From Pseudomonadota bacterium (lineage in GTDB: Bacteria > Desulfobacterota > Desulfomonilia > Desulfomonilales > Desulfomonilaceae), in NCBI GenBank assembly GCA_043799015.1, contig JAZDOF010000888.1, positions 1 to 30,654 of the forward strand: a DNA stretch of 30,654 nucleotides, given 5' to 3'. The notes below the pieces were generated by a model that had not been told where the DNA came from, did not search any database, and worked only from the letters and a program-made list of their open reading frames with translations. The position numbers and the translations under genes were made by a program. Below, in pieces: positions 16,186-25,843 of this stretch. The stretch's first letter is position 1. The number at the start of each line of letters is the position of its first letter.

Positions 16186-16499
16186 CCGAGTGGGGGATCT
16201 GGTGGGCAAGCAAGCCGGTCCCCTGCGAGGAATGCTCCGAGGAATACGATGGTGACCCGCCATGCCACGAATGCTCCAAGCCGGAGGACCTCTACCCGGA
16301 GAACGAGACCGTCTTTCGTCTCTGGTCTGTACTCAGCCGGTTTGGTCGTGACGGAATGTCTGGCTGCCTCGATCTGTCTCGCGCTCTGGATCTTTGTCGC
16401 GCTTACGGTGAGCCTAGGGGAACATTTGAGCGAATCCTACTATTTGAGGCGGAGCTCTGGCCTATCATTAAGCCAAAGGGACCGGAGGACGAGCCGTGA
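16182..16499 (+). CDS. gpGT-type frameshift extension (DUF1799-like); missing from the ORF track
   Basis: The -1 frame is open for 105 codons: LTEWGIWWASKPVPCEECSEEYDGDPPCHECSKPEDLYPENETVFRLWSVL...ILLFEAELW...EDEP*. Its stop overlaps the GTG start of the tape measure gene. Confidence 0.8.
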   Translation: MTEWGIWWASKPVPCEECSEEYDGDPPCHECSKPEDLYPENETVFRLWSVLSRFGRDGMSGCLDLSRALDLCRAYGEPRGTFERILLFEAELWPIIKPKGPEDEP

Positions 16500-19063
16500 A
16501 TGACGCCTCTATAAAAATCGCCCTCCAGTTCATCGACCAGGCCACGGCGCCCATGAGGAGCAGTCTGTCTCAGATCCAGAAGCAGACGGCCTCGGTCGAG
16601 CGAGCAATGCAATCGGCATCCAGGGCCGTTAAGACGTTTTTCGCGGGGTATGCGCTTTATAAGGGCGCGGACCTGGCGAAGGGGCTCCTGGAGACCGCGT
16701 CGACCTTCGACATGATGAAGATCTCCCTCGATACAATCACCAAGGGCAAAGGGGAAGAGACCTTCAAAATGCTCAATGAGTGGGCTATGAAAATGCCCGT
16801 CAATACCGAGGCTGCAGTGCAGGGCTATATCAGTCTTCGTGCTCGCGGTCTCGAGCCTACCATCGCGCAAATGACGACTCTCGTGGATACCTCGACGGCG
16901 CTCGGGGGTGGCAAGGAGCGCTTCACTGGAATCATAAAGGCCCTGGGGGACATTCAGAGCAAGGGCAAGATGGCGGCTCAAGAGCTGAATCAACTCGCCG
17001 AGTGGGGCGTCCCGGCTCGGCAGATCCTGGCCGATGCATTTGGAATAACCACTCAGAAGCTCGAAGAGTTGTCCGCGAAGGGCATAAGCGCTAAATCCGC
17101 CCTCGAAGCTCTATGGCGGGGCATGGAGCAACAGTTCGGCGGTCAGTCCTCGAAAATCATGGCCAAATTCTCAGGCTTAACCGAGTCCATTGAATCGTAC
17201 TGGAAAGAATTTCAGCGGCAGTTAATGGATTCCGGACCCATGAAGCAGGTGGAATCCGACCTTGCCGGCATCGTGACAGCCATGGATGATCTGAAGGCCA
17301 GGGGACGCCTGGATGAATGGGCCAACCAGGTCGGAGCGGCGCTTCAGGATTTCATCAAAAACCTCGGCATTACAGGGGACAACCTGGACGAAACAGGTCA
17401 GAAGTTTGTGGATTTCATTACCGCCACAACCAAGGCCGCTTCCGGTATCACGGCAACCGTGGTGCCCGCACTCAAGGACCTAACCTGGGCGATGGGTGAG
17501 CTTTTTGCCGCCTATAACCAGTTTCCCGATGAGGTTAAGGGCGCGGCCGGCACCGGAATTCTTGTGAGACTTTTGACGGGGTCATGGACATTGGGCGCGG
17601 CCGTAACGGCCCTAAAGGTGGGTGCGCAGGGCCTGCATGAACTAGCCGAGGGCGTCCGTGCTCTCGATAAATCCGAATCGGCTATTGACGCTCGTATGAA
17701 AGCTGCGGCCGAAGCTTATAAGGGGATCTCGAACATAATTAGAGAGCCTATCCCGGCACCAGGTGTATCGACTCCGGAAATAATAATTCCGGAACTCATG
17801 AAGGAGACCAAGGCTCCGAAGGCCAAGGCCATCCCTAGCCCTATCGATCTCTCCGATATCGACAAGCAAATCATGTCCGCCCAAAAGAGCATTATGGATT
17901 CGTTCCGCACGATTACCGATGCTTCTTACGACATGAATATCGCCATGGCCGAGCACGCCGGCAACTACTACCTCGCCGAAGAAATGCGCCAACGTCAATG
18001 GGTGGAGAAGTCCAAGAGCGGATTCCAGCAACGCATTGAATCGGAGGAGCAAGCATATCTCGAGCTTTCGCAGCGATTATCAGGGTCCAAGGGAGGGGCA
18101 ACCCCGGAAGCCGTGGCCGCGCTCGATACGCTCAAGAAATCCGTGGAGGCGCTCAAGGCCGAGTTGCCGAGCTATAATGCCCTTATCGATGAGATGGCGG
18201 CAAACCAAACGAGATGGGCGGACGAATCAAGGAAGCTCACCGGCGCACTCGATCTCGCCCAAGTCAACCTGGAATATGCCGAGCTCACCGGCAATATGCA
18301 GGGCCAGCTCCAAGCGCAACTCGCATTAATCAAGGCCACTAGAGCGCAAAAGATGGCCAATGTGGATTTGAATATTCCCGGTTTGGCCGACGCATATCGC
18401 AAGCTCTATGATGAGCAAGCGAGAGTGGCCTCCGCTTTGGGCGGAAATAACTTTTGGGCCGGATTCCGGCAAGGCTTGAGTGACACATCAGGGGGGCTTC
18501 AAACGCTCGGGCAGCTCGGAAGTGCCGTCGCCAAAGACCTCAAGGCCGGGTTTGCGGATGTCTTTAAGGGCTTCATTACTGGTGCGGACGACATGGAAAC
18601 GCGATTTGCCAATATGCTCGAAAGCCTGGGAGATAAGCTCATGGAATTCGCCATGAGCGCGGCATGGGACATGCTATCGAAAAACATGCAAGGCGGAAGT
18701 GGCGGCGGCGGTTGGTTCAGTATGTTCGGGAGTCTCTTCTCGAGCGGTTCCGGCTCGGGTATGTCCGGTAACGCGGACGGAGGCCCCGTTTACCGTGGCG
18801 TCCCCACGATCGTGGGCGAAAGGGGCCGTGAAATCTTCACTCCACCGAGCTTCGGCATGATCATCCCGAATCATGTCATTGCCAACATGTCGAACGGCGG
18901 CAGTAACCGCGCGGGCAACGCAAATGTGAACCTGCCGACTCCCGAAATCAACGTGTACAGTCCGGGCCCCAATACCAGGGTAACCATGAAATGGCGAGAG
19001 AGCTCCGGTCAGCAGCGCGCCAGGGCGGCCAGAACGCTACAGAAGGCGCAGCGCGACATATGA
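16496..19063 (+). CDS. Tail tape measure protein
   Basis: 855 aa, Ala-rich and helical. Tape-measure N-terminal domain (SLDTITKGKGEETFKMLNEWAMKMP...IQSKGKMAAQELNQLAEWG) and C-terminal ADGGPV...VGERGREIFTP. Confidence 0.92.
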   Translation: MNDASIKIALQFIDQATAPMRSSLSQIQKQTASVERAMQSASRAVKTFFAGYALYKGADLAKGLLETASTFDMMKISLDTITKGKGEETFKMLNEWAMKMPVNTEAAVQGYISLRARGLEPTIAQMTTLVDTSTALGGGKERFTGIIKALGDIQSKGKMAAQELNQLAEWGVPARQILADAFGITTQKLEELSAKGISAKSALEALWRGMEQQFGGQSSKIMAKFSGLTESIESYWKEFQRQLMDSGPMKQVESDLAGIVTAMDDLKARGRLDEWANQVGAALQDFIKNLGITGDNLDETGQKFVDFITATTKAASGITATVVPALKDLTWAMGELFAAYNQFPDEVKGAAGTGILVRLLTGSWTLGAAVTALKVGAQGLHELAEGVRALDKSESAIDARMKAAAEAYKGISNIIREPIPAPGVSTPEIIIPELMKETKAPKAKAIPSPIDLSDIDKQIMSAQKSIMDSFRTITDASYDMNIAMAEHAGNYYLAEEMRQRQWVEKSKSGFQQRIESEEQAYLELSQRLSGSKGGATPEAVAALDTLKKSVEALKAELPSYNALIDEMAANQTRWADESRKLTGALDLAQVNLEYAELTGNMQGQLQAQLALIKATRAQKMANVDLNIPGLADAYRKLYDEQARVASALGGNNFWAGFRQGLSDTSGGLQTLGQLGSAVAKDLKAGFADVFKGFITGADDMETRFANMLESLGDKLMEFAMSAAWDMLSKNMQGGSGGGGWFSMFGSLFSSGSGSGMSGNADGGPVYRGVPTIVGERGREIFTPPSFGMIIPNHVIANMSNGGSNRAGNANVNLPTPEINVYSPGPNTRVTMKWRESSGQQRARAARTLQKAQRDI

Positions 19064-19083: not shown

Positions 19084-19707
19084 ATGTCCTTTCTGGAAAC
19101 CCCGGCGTTTCCTCTGGGTATCGCTAAAAACAGTGTGGGCGGCGCCGTTTACTCGAACGAGCGGGTGATCACGGGCAGCGGTGCGCGCTTCACCAATATC
19201 CGCTGGGATAGTCCGGACTTCGAGATTGACGTGGCGACGGGTATAAGATCGGTCGAGGACCTCTATTCGCTCCAAAGCTTTCATCATGCGGTGAAGGCGG
19301 CGCACGGTTTCAGGTTTCTCTTTATCGGGGAATGGAAGTCTTGCTCTCCGATAGGTACTCCGGCTGCAACCGATCAGGTCTTGGTTGCCGATGCCGTGGC
19401 CGGTCAGACTGAGATTCAACTTATCAAGACGTGGGCGTCCGGCGCCATGTCCACCGTAATGAACATCACCAAACCGCATACCGGGTCGCTCCTGCTTAAG
19501 AAAAACAACGACATTCTCACGACTGGGTTTTCTTTGGATACAACCACCGGGATTATTACAATGACCACTCCCCTGAGTGCTCACGATGTGATATCCGCCG
19601 GATATACGTTCGATCTCCCCATGCAATTCGCGGAAGACAATTTGCCGCGCAACTTCAGTGCCTACAGGTTCGGGGACGTTTCGGTGAAGCTTGTAATGTA
19701 TCGATAA
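19084..19707 (+). CDS. Distal tail protein (DUF2460, GTA-type)
   Basis: FLETPAFPLGI, GGAVYS, SGARFTNIRW, GFRF and AGYTFDLPMQF are DUF2460 hallmarks. Confidence 0.88.
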   Translation: MSFLETPAFPLGIAKNSVGGAVYSNERVITGSGARFTNIRWDSPDFEIDVATGIRSVEDLYSLQSFHHAVKAAHGFRFLFIGEWKSCSPIGTPAATDQVLVADAVAGQTEIQLIKTWASGAMSTVMNITKPHTGSLLLKKNNDILTTGFSLDTTTGIITMTTPLSAHDVISAGYTFDLPMQFAEDNLPRNFSAYRFGDVSVKLVMYR

Positions 19708-19718
19708 TCGGGGGAACC

Positions 19719-20147
19719 ATGCCGACAAGATCGGAAGTCATAGCACACGCGCGTACACTCCTGGGCACGCCATTCCATCATCAGGGGAGGGTCCCCGGTG
19801 CTGGTTTGGATTGCGTTGGAACCCCGTTGATTACACTGTGGCATTTCGGTCTAGTGGATCGATCATGGGATGCCGAGAGATACTCAAGACAGCCCAACCC
19901 TCCGCAAATCTACGAGTTTGTGCGCAAGCTGATTCGAGCGGGTATCGCATGGAGTATTCCGAAGGATGAACGATTGCCGGCGGACGTGATGCTGATGAGA
20001 ATCAAGGACGATCCTCAACACTTCGCATGGGTCACGGATATCGGAATGCTTCATTGCCACATCACGCTCGGAGTCATCGAGCATGGGATGGATGCCATGC
20101 TCGTTAAATCCATCGCCAAGGTCTATCGCATTCGAGGGGTTGAATAG
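19719..20147 (+). CDS. NlpC/P60 family tail-associated cell-wall peptidase
   Basis: ARTLLGTPFHHQGRVPGAGLDCVG (catalytic Cys), then PQHFAW...GMLHC. Confidence 0.92.
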   Translation: MPTRSEVIAHARTLLGTPFHHQGRVPGAGLDCVGTPLITLWHFGLVDRSWDAERYSRQPNPPQIYEFVRKLIRAGIAWSIPKDERLPADVMLMRIKDDPQHFAWVTDIGMLHCHITLGVIEHGMDAMLVKSIAKVYRIRGVE

Positions 20148-23093
20148 ATGCAGCTTGCCGTATTCGCCATCGGGATCGGCCTACAGATCCTGGCCTCGTA
20201 TCTGAAGCCCAAGATGAAAACCGAGCCGAGTCCCGAGGACAAGATCACCGACTCCGCTTTCGGATCGGCGGTTGAAGAGGGATGGGGCACGCGCTGCCAT
20301 ACTGGCACGTTGCTTTGGCGCGGCCCGCGGAATGAGGAGGAATCCAGCGTCGGGGGCAAGGGCGGCGGCGGCGGAGCGTCTCAATGGACGTACAGCCAAT
20401 CGTTTCTGATGAGCTTTTGCAAAACCAAGCCGGATCAGGTCGTCTTGAGGATATGGAAGAACAAGACAAAGCTCATTTACGACATCACGGGAGACAATAC
20501 CGGAACGGTATCCAATATCGATATAATCGAGTATCCGGGAGATGAGGCGCAAACGCCGCCTCCGGCCATCGAGGCCGTGGAAGGCTCCGGGAACGTGCCC
20601 GGTTATCGGGGCATCTTCTGCGTGATGTTCGACAACATGGATACGACCGAGGACGGTGGGCGCATCCCCGATCTCATGGCCGAGATCACCAATTCTGCAG
20701 GGACCGGAGACCCCCTTTACCATCAGGTGCTTTTGGCCGATATCGACGCCTCAATTTCGCTCCTGGATCAATTGCATTCGGATAAGTACAACGAGTTCCT
20801 CTACGGTCGCTGCAATCTCGGCCTGGCCAAACTGGATACCGATACGGATGAGCTGGTCTACGCCGGGTATCCCTACGAGAGTTATCACATTCGGGATTGG
20901 GATGTAGACGATGCCGGGTATCTCTGGGTATTGGACTGGGAGACGGCCATATTGGGGACCGGCGGGGAGATGCGCCTGTTGAGGCTGGACCCCGATAGCA
21001 TGACCCCGCAGCCGGTGCTGATTATCGGTACTCCCTTCCTGGATCTGGCGGGGAACAACAAGCAGTGGGAGAGGATCTGTTGCATTAACGGCCAGTCCGC
21101 CATTCTTGCCGTGTCCGGGGTGAGGGGGTTGGATTATCCCACGGATACCGATCCGTACGTGTGTCTGGCTCGTTACAATTATGCATGGGATGAAGAGAAC
21201 CAGGTCCACGTCCTGTCCGAGGATTGGCGAGTATATGCCGGGAATGTAGACCTCGATGATCTCGAGCGATTCGCTGCATTGGATACAGCCGGGGTGGTCC
21301 ATGCCGTATTAAACAATCCGGGAACCCTCGTGCATGTGGAGAGTGAGATTGCCACTACGGATGACTGGACCGGACGGACCACGACCAATATCCACTATGT
21401 TCCGTCGAATAATGAGCTGGCAGCCTCCGACGATGACCACACTCTAAGGTTCTGGGACCTGGCCCTTGCCGATTGGTCCGCGACTGAGATAGAGAGCGTG
21501 GGCCGCCATCTCCTGACCCCCTGGCTCGCGGCGGACAAGGTTTGGTACCAGGAAGACGAGGAGGCATATACCTACGGGCTGAACGAAGTGGATCTCGCGG
21601 CGCGGGAGCTGCTGGTTGAGATCGTGAATGCCGGTGTTCGCATGGACTGCTATGACGGATCTTCTCAGTCGTTTTGGTCGCCGTCCACCGTATGCGTGTC
21701 CAACTGCATTGGCAAGTATTTGCTTCGCGAGATGGGAGGGGCTCGAGTTCCCGTCGCAGGTATCGTGACGGACCTGTGTGAATCGGTGGGATTGACCGGC
21801 GTCGACGTTTCGACGATAGACGACACCACCTTGGGGTTCAAGTCTCCTGGCAACACGGCACCGCGCCAAGATCTGGAGGTTTTGGCGAAAGCGTTTCTCC
21901 TGGAGCTCGTACAGGATGGCTTGACATCTGCCATACAGCGCAGATACCCGACCGTGCCGAAGACAATTGTCGAGATTCCGTGGGATGATCTTGGAGCGCA
22001 TGAAGCGGGACAGGAGCCGCCCTCTCGACTGATCCACAATATTCACGACGAGTTGGAGTATCCACGCGAAGTCATCGTGCAATCGGTGGATCAAGAGCAC
22101 GCCTATGAGCGGGGCGGAGAACGGGCATTTCGGGCGGCTACAAATTCGCGTCTCATAGAGACGTTCGACCTGACGCAATGCGTTCTCAACGAGGCCGAAC
22201 GTCGCTCCAAAGCGGGGTCGATCCTGCCTTCTCGTTGGGGCGAGCGTCACTTTTACTCGGGAACGACGCACAGGAAATACTATGATCTGAGACCGGGCGA
22301 TGTGATTCGTGTCCAGCCTCCGGGCGAAGATCACAGCATCCTCATTAACAAAGTGGAGCTCGGGGCTCCGGGACTGGTGAAGTTCGAGGGACACCAATAT
22401 GTTTATCAGCTCCCGGAGCCTCCGCCGGGCCCCGAACCCGAACTGTATGTTCCTCCCGTGGTGAACGGGTACTATGTCGCGGTGAGCTTGTATGGCTACT
22501 ATCCCAAATGTGAAGTGAACTGGAATGCGACTAAAACCGGTTTTTCATCGTGGGGTGGTCAATTCTACCAGGGGGACGACTGGAATCCCGCTTCCATCCT
22601 GCTCACGCCCACGATTGCGGAGCGGGATGCCGATCATCCATTCATATACGCGTGGACCGGAGCGTGGGGCACGGTCGGTCGGGGGGCCGGGAAATGGTAT
22701 GCCGAAGTGGCATGCAGCGGATGTCTAAATACCAATATGATCGTGGTTGGACTGTGTCTCAACAATAACTGGCATAGATATGTTCCGCTGGGCAATGGGA
22801 CAGGTCTTTGGAACGGTGAATATGGGTACTGGGCCTACGGGTTCAATAATTACACCTGGGGTCATCAAGCTGACCCGGACTATCCGGCGCGGCTCCTTAA
22901 CGGCAATTTAACCGCGCCCGAACAAGAATACGGAAAACGCTTCGGGTGGACGTACTCGGTCGAGTCTGGCTATGAACCCGCCGGGAATGTGATAGGTATT
23001 TCACTCGACGCTTCCGGCGATCCTTGGACTTTGAGCTTTTCCATCGACGGAGTAGATCAAGGCGCAGCGTTTAGTGTCCCGATGTTTACGTAA
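20148..23093 (+). CDS. GTA-megatron-like central tail protein, N-terminal part, ending in a SPRY/ConA-like domain
   Basis: SAFGSAVEEGWGT...GTLLW, GGKGGGG...YSQSF, PGYRGIFCVMF...GGRIP, a propeller-like insert, then PREVIVQSVDQEHAYERG and DLRPGDVI. After a Pro linker come GKWYAEV...VIGISLDA...LSFSIDGVDQGAAFS. Confidence 0.82.
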   Translation: MQLAVFAIGIGLQILASYLKPKMKTEPSPEDKITDSAFGSAVEEGWGTRCHTGTLLWRGPRNEEESSVGGKGGGGGASQWTYSQSFLMSFCKTKPDQVVLRIWKNKTKLIYDITGDNTGTVSNIDIIEYPGDEAQTPPPAIEAVEGSGNVPGYRGIFCVMFDNMDTTEDGGRIPDLMAEITNSAGTGDPLYHQVLLADIDASISLLDQLHSDKYNEFLYGRCNLGLAKLDTDTDELVYAGYPYESYHIRDWDVDDAGYLWVLDWETAILGTGGEMRLLRLDPDSMTPQPVLIIGTPFLDLAGNNKQWERICCINGQSAILAVSGVRGLDYPTDTDPYVCLARYNYAWDEENQVHVLSEDWRVYAGNVDLDDLERFAALDTAGVVHAVLNNPGTLVHVESEIATTDDWTGRTTTNIHYVPSNNELAASDDDHTLRFWDLALADWSATEIESVGRHLLTPWLAADKVWYQEDEEAYTYGLNEVDLAARELLVEIVNAGVRMDCYDGSSQSFWSPSTVCVSNCIGKYLLREMGGARVPVAGIVTDLCESVGLTGVDVSTIDDTTLGFKSPGNTAPRQDLEVLAKAFLLELVQDGLTSAIQRRYPTVPKTIVEIPWDDLGAHEAGQEPPSRLIHNIHDELEYPREVIVQSVDQEHAYERGGERAFRAATNSRLIETFDLTQCVLNEAERRSKAGSILPSRWGERHFYSGTTHRKYYDLRPGDVIRVQPPGEDHSILINKVELGAPGLVKFEGHQYVYQLPEPPPGPEPELYVPPVVNGYYVAVSLYGYYPKCEVNWNATKTGFSSWGGQFYQGDDWNPASILLTPTIAERDADHPFIYAWTGAWGTVGRGAGKWYAEVACSGCLNTNMIVVGLCLNNNWHRYVPLGNGTGLWNGEYGYWAYGFNNYTWGHQADPDYPARLLNGNLTAPEQEYGKRFGWTYSVESGYEPAGNVIGISLDASGDPWTLSFSIDGVDQGAAFSVPMFT

Positions 23094-23106
23094 GGAATAA
23101 GGTTCT

Positions 23107-24939
23107 ATGTCCTGGAATCCATCTGATAAGAATGCCGCAATAACCCTCTCAGAGACCGGTAATGTTTTAGCCACGGCCACTAATACGGCCTGGAAGTCCG
23201 TGCGCGGCGAGAACGGCAAATCCACCGGAAAGTGGTATTTCGAAGTCAAAATTCTTTATGCGGGCGTGTATCAATTGGTTGGAGTCGGCACGGCTTCAGC
23301 CAGCCTAAGCACCTTCGTAGGGAATGACACCCACGGTTGGGGCTACTATGCCATTAATGGGAAAAAGGTTTATGACACCAACACGGAAGTTACATATGGT
23401 GCCACATTCACCGCCGATGACATTGTCGGAGTGCTGGTAGATTTCGACGATGGTTCTTTGACGTTTTACAAAAACAACGTCAGCCAAGGCGTGGCTTTCA
23501 CCGGGCTTTCCGGTCCCCTTTTCCCGATGTATTCGCCCTATACGCTGAACAATGCAGGCCGGATCTACTCCACGGCCGCGGCACTGAATTATTCTCCTCC
23601 GGCCGGGGCCACGGCTTGGGATGATACTCCGGCTACCTCCCATACGATTACCGCATCCGCCGGCGCCAATGGTAGCATCGATCCGACAGGGGAGGTAGAG
23701 GTAGACACTGGTGAGGATCAGCCCTTCGCCATTGCCGCCGATGAGGGCTACCATGTTGACGATGTTTTGGTGGATGATGTCAGCGTCGGAGCAGTGGAGA
23801 GCTACACTTTCGAAGATGTGACGGATGATCACACCATTGAAGCATCGTTTGCCGCGAATGCATCGCATACGATTTCAGCCATTGCATCCCCGCACGGGAC
23901 CATTAGTCCGGCCGGCGATACCGTGGTGGCCTACGGCGGCAGTCAGCTCTATAGTATATCGCCCGACGAGGGGTATATGGTTGGCGGGTTGCTGGTTGAC
24001 CTGATCGACCAAGGGGCTCTGCTGGAATCATACCTGTTCGAGGATGTCACCGAAGACCATACCATATCGCCAGCCTTCGTCAGAGATCTGCGCATCATGG
24101 ATCACCTGGCGCTCCCGGTAACGACCGTCTGCGAGCTGTGGAAGATAGTGAGGGCGGACGATACGGTCCTTTGCTTCACCACATTCAACCGGGATCTCGT
24201 TTATCGAGGGCTCACCTATTATGCGGCCCGTGGCGGATTCCTTTCCACCGCCATTTCGATGAGTAGTGATTTCAGTACGGGAAATCTGGAACTTAACGGG
24301 TTCATGGATTCCTCGGCCATTACCCGAGCCGATCTACTGGCTAAGCTCTATGACGGAGCCGAGCTGACCATTGGTGTAGTCAATTATATGGATCTGACTA
24401 TCAGTCAGCTGGTGCTTTGCGTGGGAACGCTGGGTGAAGTTAAATGCGAGGAGGGGAAATTTACCGTCGAAATGCTGGACTTTGGGAAAAGGTTGCAGCA
24501 GGTCGTTGGAGACACGATTGAGAAGTATTGCCTCGCTCGGTTTTGCGATTCTCGCTGCGGGCTCGATGCGGGGGATTGGACTACCACAGGGACCGTGACT
24601 TCCGTGCATCCGGATGATACCCGGCGGAGGTTCTGGGATAATGCCTTTACGGACGCAGACAACTTCTATCAATATGGCGAGTTGACCTGGCTGACCGGCG
24701 ATAATGCCGGATACGTCGTGGAAATCGTGGAGAGCAACGATGAGGGTTTCTTCGCCCTGTTCGAGACTATGCCTCAAGCGATTCAGGCCGGCGATACGTT
24801 CAGCGTGATTGCAGGCTGCGACAAAGAAGCCGTGACCTGCAAGACCAAATGGGGCGACAGCAACATTGTCAACTTTAGAGGTTTCGGGCTGTTCCTGCCT
24901 GGACGCTCCGGCCTCCTCGATTACCCGGACAGGACGTAG
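23107..24939 (+). CDS. Baseplate hub protein (DUF2163/BR0599-like) with N-terminal SPRY domain and two bacterial repeat domains
   Basis: SPRY: WNPSDK...GKWYFEV...VGVLVDFDDGSLTFYKNNVSQGVAF. Hub from about 24097: VTTVCELWKIVRAD, CLARFCDSRCG, GCDKEAVTCKTKW..N.VNFRGF. Confidence 0.88.
   Translation: MSWNPSDKNAAITLSETGNVLATATNTAWKSVRGENGKSTGKWYFEVKILYAGVYQLVGVGTASASLSTFVGNDTHGWGYYAINGKKVYDTNTEVTYGATFTADDIVGVLVDFDDGSLTFYKNNVSQGVAFTGLSGPLFPMYSPYTLNNAGRIYSTAAALNYSPPAGATAWDDTPATSHTITASAGANGSIDPTGEVEVDTGEDQPFAIAADEGYHVDDVLVDDVSVGAVESYTFEDVTDDHTIEASFAANASHTISAIASPHGTISPAGDTVVAYGGSQLYSISPDEGYMVGGLLVDLIDQGALLESYLFEDVTEDHTISPAFVRDLRIMDHLALPVTTVCELWKIVRADDTVLCFTTFNRDLVYRGLTYYAARGGFLSTAISMSSDFSTGNLELNGFMDSSAITRADLLAKLYDGAELTIGVVNYMDLTISQLVLCVGTLGEVKCEEGKFTVEMLDFGKRLQQVVGDTIEKYCLARFCDSRCGLDAGDWTTTGTVTSVHPDDTRRRFWDNAFTDADNFYQYGELTWLTGDNAGYVVEIVESNDEGFFALFETMPQAIQAGDTFSVIAGCDKEAVTCKTKWGDSNIVNFRGFGLFLPGRSGLLDYPDRT
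23641..24082 (+). repeat. Two tandem repeats of about 73 aa (divergent InlB-B/Flg_new-like)
   Basis: HTITASAGANGSIDP...DEGYHV...SYTFEDVTDDHTIEASF and HTISAIASPHGTISP...DEGYMV...SYLFEDVTEDHTISPAF. Confidence 0.85.
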
Positions 24940-24943
24940 AAGA

Positions 24944-25843
24944 ATGGCCAAATCCGCACCTACCACCGCCATGCTTCTGGACATACCCTTCTTCCGGGAC
25001 GCGGACCATGACGCTGGATATTATGTCGCGGCTTGCGGAGCGACATCAAGGACGTGGAAGGGCTGTGTGTTATATCGATCTCTCGATGGCGGGAGCTCAT
25101 ACTCTCAGCTCATCAGGATCACCAACGCCTCTGTACTCGGATCTACTAGCGGGGCTCTGGCGTCGGGCACGCCTGATGCGTGGGATGAGGTGAACGCCGT
25201 GGATGTAGTTGTTCATGGCGTACTGGAAAATTACGAGCAGATAAACGCTCCCTTGATACTGATCGGCAATGAAATCGTTAAATGTTGCGCCGCCACGTTA
25301 GTCGGAACTTTGGGAGCCATGAATATCTACACGCTTAGCGAACTGAAGCGCGGATTGTGGAACACCTCGTCTCAGGTCGGTACTCACGTGGCCGGGGATA
25401 GGGTCGTTTTGCTGGACGAAACCGTGACTCGTATTCCCGGGAACTCCGAAGACATCGGGCAGGCACAACTCATAAAGGCTGTCTCGTTTGGAAGGGCTCT
25501 CGCGAGCGCGCCGGCCACGCCATTCAGCAATACCGGGCGGGGTCTGTACATAGCGGTGGACGAATATGGCGAAATCGACTGCGCCGGAAGCGCCGATGTG
25601 GTGCTCGCCGATGCCGTGGCTCAGTGCGGGCTATTAAAACTGGTTGGGGCCTTGACCGATAGCATCGCGGTGGTTGTCCCAACTCGGGCGCGTCAATGGA
25701 TGATCTGGAACGCTACAACCGGCGCGTATTCCGTTACCGTGAAAACGGCAGCGGGCACGGGCAAGGAAGTGACTCAGGGCAACGTCTCCAAGCTGGCGTG
25801 CGATGGCGCGAATGTCATCGGGATTGACGCTTTTGTGAGCTGA
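24944..25843 (+). CDS. Megatron C-terminal part (Rcc01698-like) with a C-terminal fibre-type beta domain
   Basis: Start moved to ATG 24944. PTTAMLLDIP..RDAD..AGYYVAA...WKG..LYRSLDGG, LILIGNEIV and LSELKRGLWNT...HVAGDRVVLLD. Confidence 0.8.
   Translation: MAKSAPTTAMLLDIPFFRDADHDAGYYVAACGATSRTWKGCVLYRSLDGGSSYSQLIRITNASVLGSTSGALASGTPDAWDEVNAVDVVVHGVLENYEQINAPLILIGNEIVKCCAATLVGTLGAMNIYTLSELKRGLWNTSSQVGTHVAGDRVVLLDETVTRIPGNSEDIGQAQLIKAVSFGRALASAPATPFSNTGRGLYIAVDEYGEIDCAGSADVVLADAVAQCGLLKLVGALTDSIAVVVPTRARQWMIWNATTGAYSVTVKTAAGTGKEVTQGNVSKLACDGANVIGIDAFVS

What the first reader, a model, noticed from the sequence alone, without database searches (positions are those of the whole stretch)
19084..25843. 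GTA-type baseplate reshuffled: megatron split in two with the hub gene between the halves
Established: the RcGTA-type order is distal tail (DUF2460), hub (DUF2163), NlpC/P60, then one continuous megatron. Seen: DUF2460, NlpC/P60, megatron N-part, hub, megatron C-part. The N-part leaves megatron-like sequence after DLRPGDVI...GLVKFEG, and the next expected segment (PTTAMLLDIP...YRSLDGG) restarts as a separate gene at 24944. Inference: splitting freed a C-terminus for a receptor-binding domain, giving a new baseplate architecture.
Basis: partly seen in the sequence, partly recalled or inferred. Interest (0 to 1): 0.7.

Follow-up and report, generated by a model that had tools for sequence, protein, structure and literature searches.

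The report
Split megatron with relocated hub gene
An uncultured tailed phage carries the RcGTA/lambda-type tail-tip genes in a rare but real order: its giant "megatron" protein is cut into two genes exactly at a domain boundary, and the hub gene sits between them. This is a modest new variant of a known machine, not a new kind.

Summary
After the tape measure gene, the window encodes in this order:
- Dit (DUF2460)
- an NlpC/P60-type peptidase
- a 981-aa megatron N-part (MegN)
- a 610-aa hub
- a 299-aa protein (MegC) that matches the megatron fibre-binding domain

The cut falls at the linker between the central and fibre-binding domains. MegC residues 2-230 superpose on residues 1134-1383 of the roseophage R4C megatron (Z 20.8, rmsd 1.9 Å). 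R4C's fibre-binding domain starts at residue 1131.

Mis-assembly is very unlikely. A second metagenomic contig has the same five-gene order at 41-60% protein identity. A third keeps the hub-to-MegC junction at 61-65% identity.

The split alone is not unique. At least six other contigs have split megatrons, but with the hub in its usual place. I found the hub between the halves only in this lineage, and in none of about 14 groups of isolated phages.

MegN has gained a C-terminal SPRY-like domain, and the hub carries an N-terminal SPRY plus two InlB-type repeats. Receptor binding by these domains is inferred, not shown.

Verdict: a new variant of a known kind, of moderate interest. The scan had already noted the paired SPRY domains on this same window.

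The parts
16496..19063 (+). Tape measure protein (855 aa), immediately upstream of the baseplate cassette
   Evidence: PF20155 TMP_3 at E 5.5e-21; phrog_973
19084..19707 (+). Distal tail protein (Dit; RcGTA g12 / DUF2460), 207 aa
   Evidence: PF09343 at E 1.8e-34; 41% identical to the L005 Dit
19719..20147 (+). NlpC/P60-type cell-wall peptidase (RcGTA g14-like), 142 aa. It occupies the position where the hub gene normally sits.
   Evidence: No Pfam hit. Aligns with Pfam-positive NLPC_P60 proteins of L006, L007 and L008, with invariant Cys32, His101 and His112. 56% identical to the L005 homologue.
20148..22397 (+). MegN residues 1-750: hydrophobic N-terminal iris/penetration helix, then adhesin-like, peripheral and central domains of a megatron
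   Evidence: Matches 6tba_8A, the RcGTA megatron: residues 32-184 to 62-205 and 533-591 to 763-822. PF13550 at 571-737. My megatron profile positions 49-769 match residues 31-750. The N-terminal hydrophobic stretch is read directly from the sequence.
22398..23093 (+). MegN residues 751-981: proline-rich linker plus an added SPRY-like beta-sandwich domain, then the TAA stop
   Evidence: Outside the megatron profile. hhalign to the hub SPRY: probability 94.3%, E 9.7e-8. BLASTP E 2e-4. Atlas neighbours are SPRY clusters, a lead only. 51% identical in L005. No Pfam hit.
23107..23601 (+). Hub residues 1-165: N-terminal SPRY domain
   Evidence: PF00622 at E 1.3e-18, 67.7 bits. Matches eukaryotic SPRY structures such as 5jia_A. 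AAGG lies upstream of the ATG, and the hub frame is closed 9 nt upstream.
23641..24081 (+). Hub residues about 179-325: two InlB B-repeat (Flg_new_2) Ig-like domains
   Evidence: PF18998 at E 2.4e-5 for the first repeat. The second repeat is seen by eye. The region is 40-55% identical to repeats of bacterial surface proteins.
24097..24939 (+). Hub residues 331-610: complete RcGTA g13-type hub core (attachment, Fe-S, oligosaccharide-binding and clip domains) with four conserved Cys
   Evidence: PF09931 at E 3.2e-41 and PF09356 at E 4.3e-19. Matches 6tba_7A residues 8-284 at E 6e-31, with the Cys residues aligned. The four Cys are invariant among lineage members.
24944..25546 (+). MegC residues 1-201: stand-alone first part of the megatron fibre-binding domain (tandem FN3-like). 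It starts 4 nt after the hub stop codon.
   Evidence: PF23666. About 40% identical to positions roughly 750-960 of many 1050-1100-aa megatrons, E about 1e-29. Alignment A1. AF2 model pLDDT 93. Matches 8gtc_M residues 1134-1383 at Z 20.8, rmsd 1.9 Å.
25565..25831 (+). MegC residues 208-296: added tail-fibre repeat module, absent from the L005 (203 aa) and L004 (229 aa) homologues
   Evidence: Matches 2-5 tandem units in long fibre-like proteins, some of which end in Gp53-like_C or Collar domains. phrog_12796 and phrog_38625, both tail fibre families.

Best explanation
This is a functional RcGTA/lambda-type siphophage tail-tip cassette in a permuted and fragmented form.

Shown:
1. The megatron is encoded as two polypeptides, cut at the flexible linker between the central (Dit-docking) domain and the fibre-binding domain.
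2. The Fe-S hub gene has moved from between Dit and the peptidase to between the two megatron pieces. It is tightly abutted to MegC, with a 4-nt gap.
3. All core hallmarks are kept: the Dit, the Cys/His/His peptidase, the N-terminal iris helix, the central domain and the four-Cys hub.
4. New peripheral modules were added: a SPRY-like domain on the C-terminus of MegN, a SPRY plus two Ig-like repeats on the N-terminus of the hub, and one fibre repeat on the C-terminus of MegC.
5. The five-gene order persists at 41-60% protein identity in a phage with otherwise unrelated flanking genes, so it is a viable cassette that has been maintained over substantial divergence.

Inferred:
- The core (Dit hexamer, hub trimer, MegN trimer) assembles as in RcGTA and R4C.
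- MegC now docks non-covalently as a separately encoded peripheral adaptor or short fibre.
- Making it a separate gene turns the fibre-binding domain into an exchangeable N-terminal anchor for host-recognition modules. Stand-alone homologues with different C-termini fit this: none, a fibre repeat, or a pectate-lyase beta-helix.
- The SPRY and Ig-like arms are extra binding surfaces, either for host glycans or for docking.
- The swap of hub with the [peptidase-MegN] block probably arose by recombination or by duplication followed by deletion. It need not change the assembled core.
For: - Domain and family assignments.
- Clean split: MegN covers profile positions 49-769 and MegC covers 794-994. 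MegC begins at the conserved LLDIP..RD motif that follows the linker in full-length megatrons.
- Structure: MegC residues 2-230 superpose on R4C megatron residues 1134-1383 at Z 20.8 (Foldseek E 1e-8). The R4C fibre-binding domain is residues 1131-1447 (PMC10276861). RcGTA has a 20-residue linker at this boundary (PMC7296036).
- Conservation: L005 has the identical order with Dit 41%, peptidase 56%, MegN 58%, hub 60% and MegC 54% identity, and unrelated flanking genes. L004 keeps hub followed by MegC with a 3-nt gap at 65% and 61% identity.
- Gene starts: plausible ribosome-binding sites and closed upstream frames at both junctions. One unitig from a public run bridges the MegN/hub junction without differences.
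- Variable C-termini of stand-alone homologues: 203 aa bare (L005), 229 aa (L004), 673 aa with a Pel9A-like beta-helix (L013).
- SPRY-like domain on MegN.
Against: - No direct evidence that MegC is a virion component, or of where it docks.
- MegC keeps only the first 200 or so residues of the roughly 320-residue fibre-binding domain (profile positions 995-1104 are absent), so it may not bind a fibre at all.
- The AF2 model of the MegN SPRY-like domain was unusable (pLDDT 35). The fold assignment therefore rests on profile comparison and atlas leads.
- The lineage is known from only 3-4 low-coverage metagenomic contigs.
- An earlier follow-up on this window (e1-5288076) reads the downstream 'fibre' genes as exported proteins. 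If so, the identity of the real tail fibre is open.
Confidence: 0.72

Rival explanations
1. Cassette replacement rather than an in-situ split. The ancestor lost its own hub and its megatron C-terminus, then acquired a foreign [SPRY-hub + fibre-binding-domain protein] two-gene block from another phage. On this view MegC was never part of this MegN.
For: Phage tail modules are mosaic: the window and L005 share only the baseplate cassette. The hub carries an unusual N-terminal arm, and hub and MegC are tightly coupled in all three contigs. MegC is about equally distant (roughly 40%) from full-length and split relatives. The best full-length relatives of the MegN central domain and of MegC differ.
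Against: Across 164 full-length megatrons, similarity to the MegN central domain correlates with similarity to MegC (Spearman 0.40). This hints at shared ancestry but is weak and suffers from selection bias. The missing linker is only about 24 profile positions, the size expected for a simple cut.
Confidence: 0.2
2. Assembly artefact: a chimeric metagenomic contig placed the hub gene inside a megatron gene.
For: The window is a whole 30.6-kb contig of a 1095-contig MAG. Coverage in the public runs that hold it is only about 2-4x, and no laid piece spans the hub/MegC junction.
Against: The same order occurs in an independent assembly from another run at 54-60% identity, and the hub-MegC junction occurs in a third. 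Both pieces have their own starts and stops at a domain boundary. One unitig bridges the MegN/hub junction.
Confidence: 0.02
3. Decaying prophage: the megatron was broken by a rearrangement and the pieces are non-functional remnants.
For: The contig is binned with a bacterial MAG. MegC lacks the last 110 or so residues of the canonical fibre-binding domain.
Against: All five ORFs are intact and collinear with a relative at 41-60% identity with the same boundaries, which implies long-term purifying selection. The catalytic and cluster residues are conserved. The MegC model is confident, pLDDT 93. The contig carries a full head, tail and packaging set.
Confidence: 0.04

Closest known systems
RcGTA baseplate genes g12-g15 (Rcc01695-Rcc01698; PDB 6TBA/6TEH; Bardy et al. 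2020, PMC7296036)
   Same: Homologous Dit, Fe-S hub with four Cys, NlpC/P60 peptidase and megatron domains (iris, adhesin-like, peripheral, central, fibre-binding). The expected core is a threefold hub-megatron complex under a Dit hexamer.
   Different: In RcGTA the order is Dit-hub-peptidase-megatron, and the megatron is a single 1304-aa chain. Here the order is Dit-peptidase-MegN-hub-MegC, and the chain is cut at the central/fibre-binding linker. The peripheral domain is shorter. SPRY and Ig-like modules are added. The last third of the fibre-binding domain is missing.
Roseophage vB_DshS-R4C baseplate (PDB 8GTC; PMC10276861)
   Same: Best structural match of MegC: R4C megatron residues 1134-1383, Z 20.8, rmsd 1.9 Å. 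The hub is also homologous (8gtc_P, E 3.7e-27).
   Different: The R4C megatron is a single 1447-aa chain in the canonical gene order. Its fibre gene follows the megatron gene, and the fibre binds the covalently attached fibre-binding domain.
Split megatrons with canonical hub position (metagenomic loci L006, L007, L008, L013, L015, L019)
   Same: The megatron is encoded as two or more adjacent genes cut at or near the central/fibre-binding boundary. In L019 the cut lies at a different boundary. In L013 the stand-alone fibre-binding protein carries a beta-helix depolymerase domain.
   Different: In all of them the hub sits between Dit and the peptidase. In L006 and L007 the cut lies about 37 residues further downstream, which suggests independent events. 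The MegN pieces of L006 and L007 have no SPRY-like tail.
Lambda-type tail tip, gene order M-L-K-I-J, and related solved tips (JBD30 8RK3, Chi 8VJH)
   Same: From my own knowledge, gpL is an Fe-S hub-like protein, gpK is an NlpC/P60-type protein and gpJ carries the Phage-tail_3 central fibre. The JBD30 and Chi tip proteins contain the same tandem FN3-like domain as MegC (Z 16.8 and 13.8).
   Different: Those phages keep the hub (gpL) before the peptidase (gpK) and the central fibre (gpJ), and the FN3-like domain lies inside the J-like chain.

Membership tests
RcGTA-type baseplate module (g12-g15) | Distal tail protein of the DUF2460 family | tested here: met
   PF09343 at E 1.8e-34, 119.5 bits against a cut-off of 30.4
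RcGTA-type baseplate module (g12-g15) | Hub with attachment domain, BR0599 domain and four Cys ligands of the Fe-S cluster | tested here: met
   PF09931 and PF09356 both above cut-off. Aligned to RcGTA g13 residues 8-284 with the Cys residues matched. The four Cys are invariant in the lineage. Presence of the cluster itself is not testable here.
RcGTA-type baseplate module (g12-g15) | NlpC/P60 peptidase with a catalytic Cys and His residues | tested here: met
   No Pfam hit at E up to 10. In alignment with Pfam-positive NLPC_P60 proteins, Cys32, His101 and His112 are invariant.
RcGTA-type baseplate module (g12-g15) | Megatron as one continuous multi-domain chain, from iris to fibre-binding domain | tested here: not met
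   There are two ORFs in different frames with a 1.85-kb hub gene between them.
RcGTA-type baseplate module (g12-g15) | Gene order Dit, hub, peptidase, megatron | tested here: not met
   The order here is Dit, peptidase, MegN, hub, MegC. The canonical order is seen in phiJL001, CcrPW, L006, L008, L013 and L019.
Rcc01698_C (PF23666) / megatron fibre-binding domain | Sequence match above the Pfam gathering score, and the fold of the solved fibre-binding domain | tested here: met
   32.4 bits against a cut-off of 27. Matches 8gtc_M residues 1134-1383 at Z 20.8, rmsd 1.9 Å, 192 residues aligned. Only the first 200 or so of roughly 320 residues are present.
Rcc01698_C (PF23666) / megatron fibre-binding domain | Binds the N-terminus of a trimeric tail fibre | not testable with these tools
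   No fibre partner was identified. An earlier follow-up (e1-5288076) reads the downstream genes as exported proteins.
SPRY (PF00622) | Pfam match above the gathering score (hub N-terminus) | tested here: met
   67.7 bits against a cut-off of 26.3, residues 42-145
SPRY (PF00622) | Pfam match or confident fold (MegN C-terminus, residues about 797-981) | tested here: inconclusive
   No Pfam hit. hhalign to the hub SPRY gives probability 94.3%, E 9.7e-8. Atlas neighbours are SPRY clusters with TM about 0.55. The AF2 model failed, pLDDT 35.

The most novel reading that the evidence does not exclude
The relocation is not neutral. The hub's new N-terminal SPRY/Ig arm, rather than the megatron's peripheral domain, has become the docking site for the liberated fibre-binding adaptor. 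The tight hub-MegC translational coupling, conserved in all three contigs, would reflect co-assembly. If so, the periphery of a lambda/RcGTA-type tail tip has been re-wired so that the host-recognition adaptor hangs from the hub.
Probability: 0.12. Interest if true: 0.6.

Novelty: new variant of a known kind. Interest (0 to 1): 0.4.

Why it matters
The Dit-hub-peptidase-central fibre order (lambda M-L-K-J, RcGTA g12-g15) is among the most conserved gene orders in siphophage tails. The megatron is usually treated as one giant chain. This lineage, together with the other split forms found here, shows two things. The fibre-binding domain can exist as a separate subunit cut at the structurally defined flexible linker. 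The hub gene can also move without loss of the cassette.

This gives a natural experiment for asking how the peripheral adaptor is held on the baseplate. It also suggests that stand-alone Rcc01698_C proteins should be annotated as baseplate-anchored receptor-binding adaptors rather than as fragments. It does not reveal a new mechanism.

Tried and rejected
- Co-fold of MegN 190-981 with MegC 1-205: no answer (scores 0.00, 0.36, 0.00). This counts neither for nor against binding.
- AF2 model of MegN residues 740-981 from a two-row alignment: pLDDT 35, unusable.
- Searches for more members of the lineage found none:
  - IMG/VR with MegC, the hub alignment, the MegN alignment and the MegC trio (only a distant hit, L020).
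  - JGI metagenomes with the hub alignment (one 30% hit, L010).
  - GTDB species genomes.
  - 60 relatives of the MAG.
  These scans need shared short peptide patterns, so absence is weak evidence.
- The broad fibre-binding alignment A1 was too diverse to seed a locus scan.
- Read check: only low-depth unitigs were available. One bridges the MegN/hub junction and none bridges hub/MegC. The runs may be the source samples, so this is not independent evidence.
- Megatron N-match and C-match out of order in CcrPW and CcrColossus: this turned out to be two tandem full-length megatron genes, not a rearrangement.
- MegN-hub fusion by frameshift: rejected. The hub frame has a stop codon 9 nt upstream of its ATG.
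- Correlation test for in-situ split against cassette replacement: positive but weak, and biased by how the set was chosen.
- PDB sequence search with MegC: no hit. The relationship to solved structures appeared only by fold.


Full report
**Context.** The window is a complete 30,654-bp contig (C927) of a 1095-contig MAG. It is a siphophage-like genome piece. It carries a lambda-type large terminase and portal, a tape measure gene at 16496-19063, and then the genes in question.

**Observation.**
- 19084-19707 is DUF2460 (Dit), E 1.8e-34.
- 19719-20147 has no Pfam hit. It aligns with Pfam-positive NLPC_P60 proteins from related loci, with an invariant Cys and two invariant His.
- 20148-23093 (MegN, 981 aa) carries Phage-tail_3 and matches phrog_4271 (E 3.9e-60). 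It matches the RcGTA megatron 6tba_8A at two places: residues 32-184 to 62-205, and 533-591 to 763-822.
- 23107-24939 (610 aa) is SPRY plus InlB B-repeats plus a complete hub. Residues 331-608 align to RcGTA g13 residues 8-284 at E 6e-31, and the four Fe-S cysteines are aligned.
- 24944-25843 (MegC, 299 aa) passes Rcc01698_C and matches phrog_4271 positions 990-1196 of 1309.

**Where the cut lies.**
- I built a profile from 40 full-length megatrons. MegN residues 31-750 cover profile positions 49-769, and MegC residues 3-201 cover positions 794-994. The two genes together therefore reconstitute a megatron minus a linker of about 24 positions.
- A library-wide phmmer search places MegC residues 4-202 at positions of about 750-960 in many 1050-1100-aa megatrons, at about 40% identity and E about 1e-29.
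- In alignment, MegC starts at the conserved LLDIP..RD motif.
- A high-confidence AF2 model of MegC (pLDDT 93.3) superposes on R4C megatron residues 1134-1383 (Z 20.8, rmsd 1.9 Å; Foldseek E 1e-8).
- The R4C paper defines the fibre-binding domain as residues 1131-1447 (PMC10276861). The RcGTA paper describes this domain (985-1304) as held by a 20-residue linker and by contact with the peripheral domain (PMC7296036). The cut is therefore exactly at a structurally defined flexible boundary.
- MegC lacks the last 110 or so profile positions of the canonical domain. In their place it ends in a module of about 90 residues, which occurs as tandem repeats in long fibre-like proteins.

**Added domains.**
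- MegN residues 751-981 lie outside the megatron profile. They consist of a proline-rich linker and a domain homologous to the hub's Pfam-positive SPRY (BLASTP E 2e-4; hhalign probability 94.3%, E 9.7e-8; atlas leads). Its AF2 model failed.
- The hub's N-terminal arm is a SPRY domain plus two InlB-type repeats. The repeats are 40-55% identical to repeats in bacterial surface proteins.

**Is it real?**
- P0021 (978 aa, 58% identical to MegN) lies on an 18.4-kb contig from another run. That contig has the same order: Dit, peptidase, MegN, SPRY-hub (609 aa), MegC (203 aa).
- The window and this contig (L005) share only part of the tape measure protein plus these five genes, at 41-60% identity. 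The flanking genes are unrelated.
- A third contig, L004, has the hub C-terminus followed 3 nt later by a MegC homologue, at 65% and 61% identity.
- Both junctions in the window have plausible ribosome-binding sites, and the hub frame is closed just upstream of its ATG.
- One unitig from a public aquatic run bridges the MegN/hub junction.
- Mis-assembly and pseudogenisation are therefore very unlikely.

**Is it common?**
- The split alone recurs. L006, L007, L008, L013 and L015 have adjacent N- and C-genes. L019 has the megatron in three or more genes. Wherever the upstream genes are on the contig, the hub is in its canonical place.
- In L006 and L007 the cut lies about 37 residues downstream of the window's cut, so splitting probably happened more than once.
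- Of 119 listed MegN homologues, 112 carry Phage-tail_3 and Rcc01698_C in a single chain.
- I found the hub between the halves only in the window lineage. In about 14 groups of isolated phages where both the hub and megatron coordinates were listed, the hub is always upstream (annotated examples).
- Pattern-seeded scans of IMG/VR, JGI metagenomes and GTDB genomes found no further members of the lineage.
- The papers I searched describe only the canonical order.

**Mechanism (inferred).**
- The core parts are intact, so the Dit hexamer with the hub and MegN trimers should assemble as in RcGTA and R4C.
- MegC must now attach non-covalently. Where it attaches is unknown, and the co-fold gave no answer.
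- Stand-alone homologues carry different C-termini: none (L005), a fibre repeat (the window), or a Pel9A-like beta-helix (L013). This fits the fibre-binding domain acting as an exchangeable baseplate anchor for host-recognition modules.
- The SPRY and Ig-like arms are candidate glycan-binding or docking surfaces.
- Whether the arrangement arose by an in-situ cut plus block swap, or by acquisition of a foreign hub-MegC block, is unresolved.

**Verdict.** This is a new variant of a known kind: rare, conserved in its lineage, and of moderate interest to phage-tail specialists.

Noticed in passing
L003:6274-11158: A related phage contig has Dit followed by a 780-aa hub with an N-terminal NCTSP TIM-barrel extension. 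Three small genes follow, then only a 385-aa protein (central plus fibre-binding domains). No long megatron N-part and no NlpC/P60 gene were called.
   Followed up: no
L013:9001-11022: A stand-alone fibre-binding-domain protein (673 aa) is fused to a Pel9A-like pectate-lyase beta-helix. The megatron C-piece is used here as the anchor of a tailspike. The hub is in its canonical position.
   Followed up: partly
L019:5989-13353: Megatron functions appear spread over four consecutive genes (670, 643, 602 and 538 aa). Only the last carries Phage-tail_3 and Rcc01698_C.
   Followed up: no
L018:7373-14561 (Caulobacter phage CcrPW): Two tandem full-length megatron-like tail protein genes (1198 and 1196 aa) follow the peptidase gene. 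CcrColossus shows the same pattern of matches.
   Followed up: partly
window 1-30654 (whole contig) and G000: Rcc01698_C was found in only 2 of 401 sampled genomes of the MAG's phylum, counting the MAG itself. MegC was found in none of 60 relatives. Either the binning of this phage contig to the MAG is doubtful, or this tail-tip type is unusual for that host group.
   Followed up: partly
window 23641-24081: The hub's two InlB B-repeat units are 40-55% identical to repeats in large bacterial surface proteins, many of them T9SS-sorted. This suggests recent exchange of these adhesin-type modules between phage and cellular genes.
   Followed up: no
window 25565-25831: The C-terminal module of MegC weakly resembles residues 95-191 of PDB 6o38_A, a 'chaperone-substrate complex' (Z 6.8). 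It also matches 2-5 tandem repeats in fibre proteins ending in Gp53-like_C. Its fold was not examined on its own.
   Followed up: partly
L017:3638-5407 (phage phiJL001 gp84): The name-giving hub gp84 is 589 aa, about twice the length of the RcGTA hub. Hub extensions therefore also exist in isolated phages with the canonical gene order.
   Followed up: no
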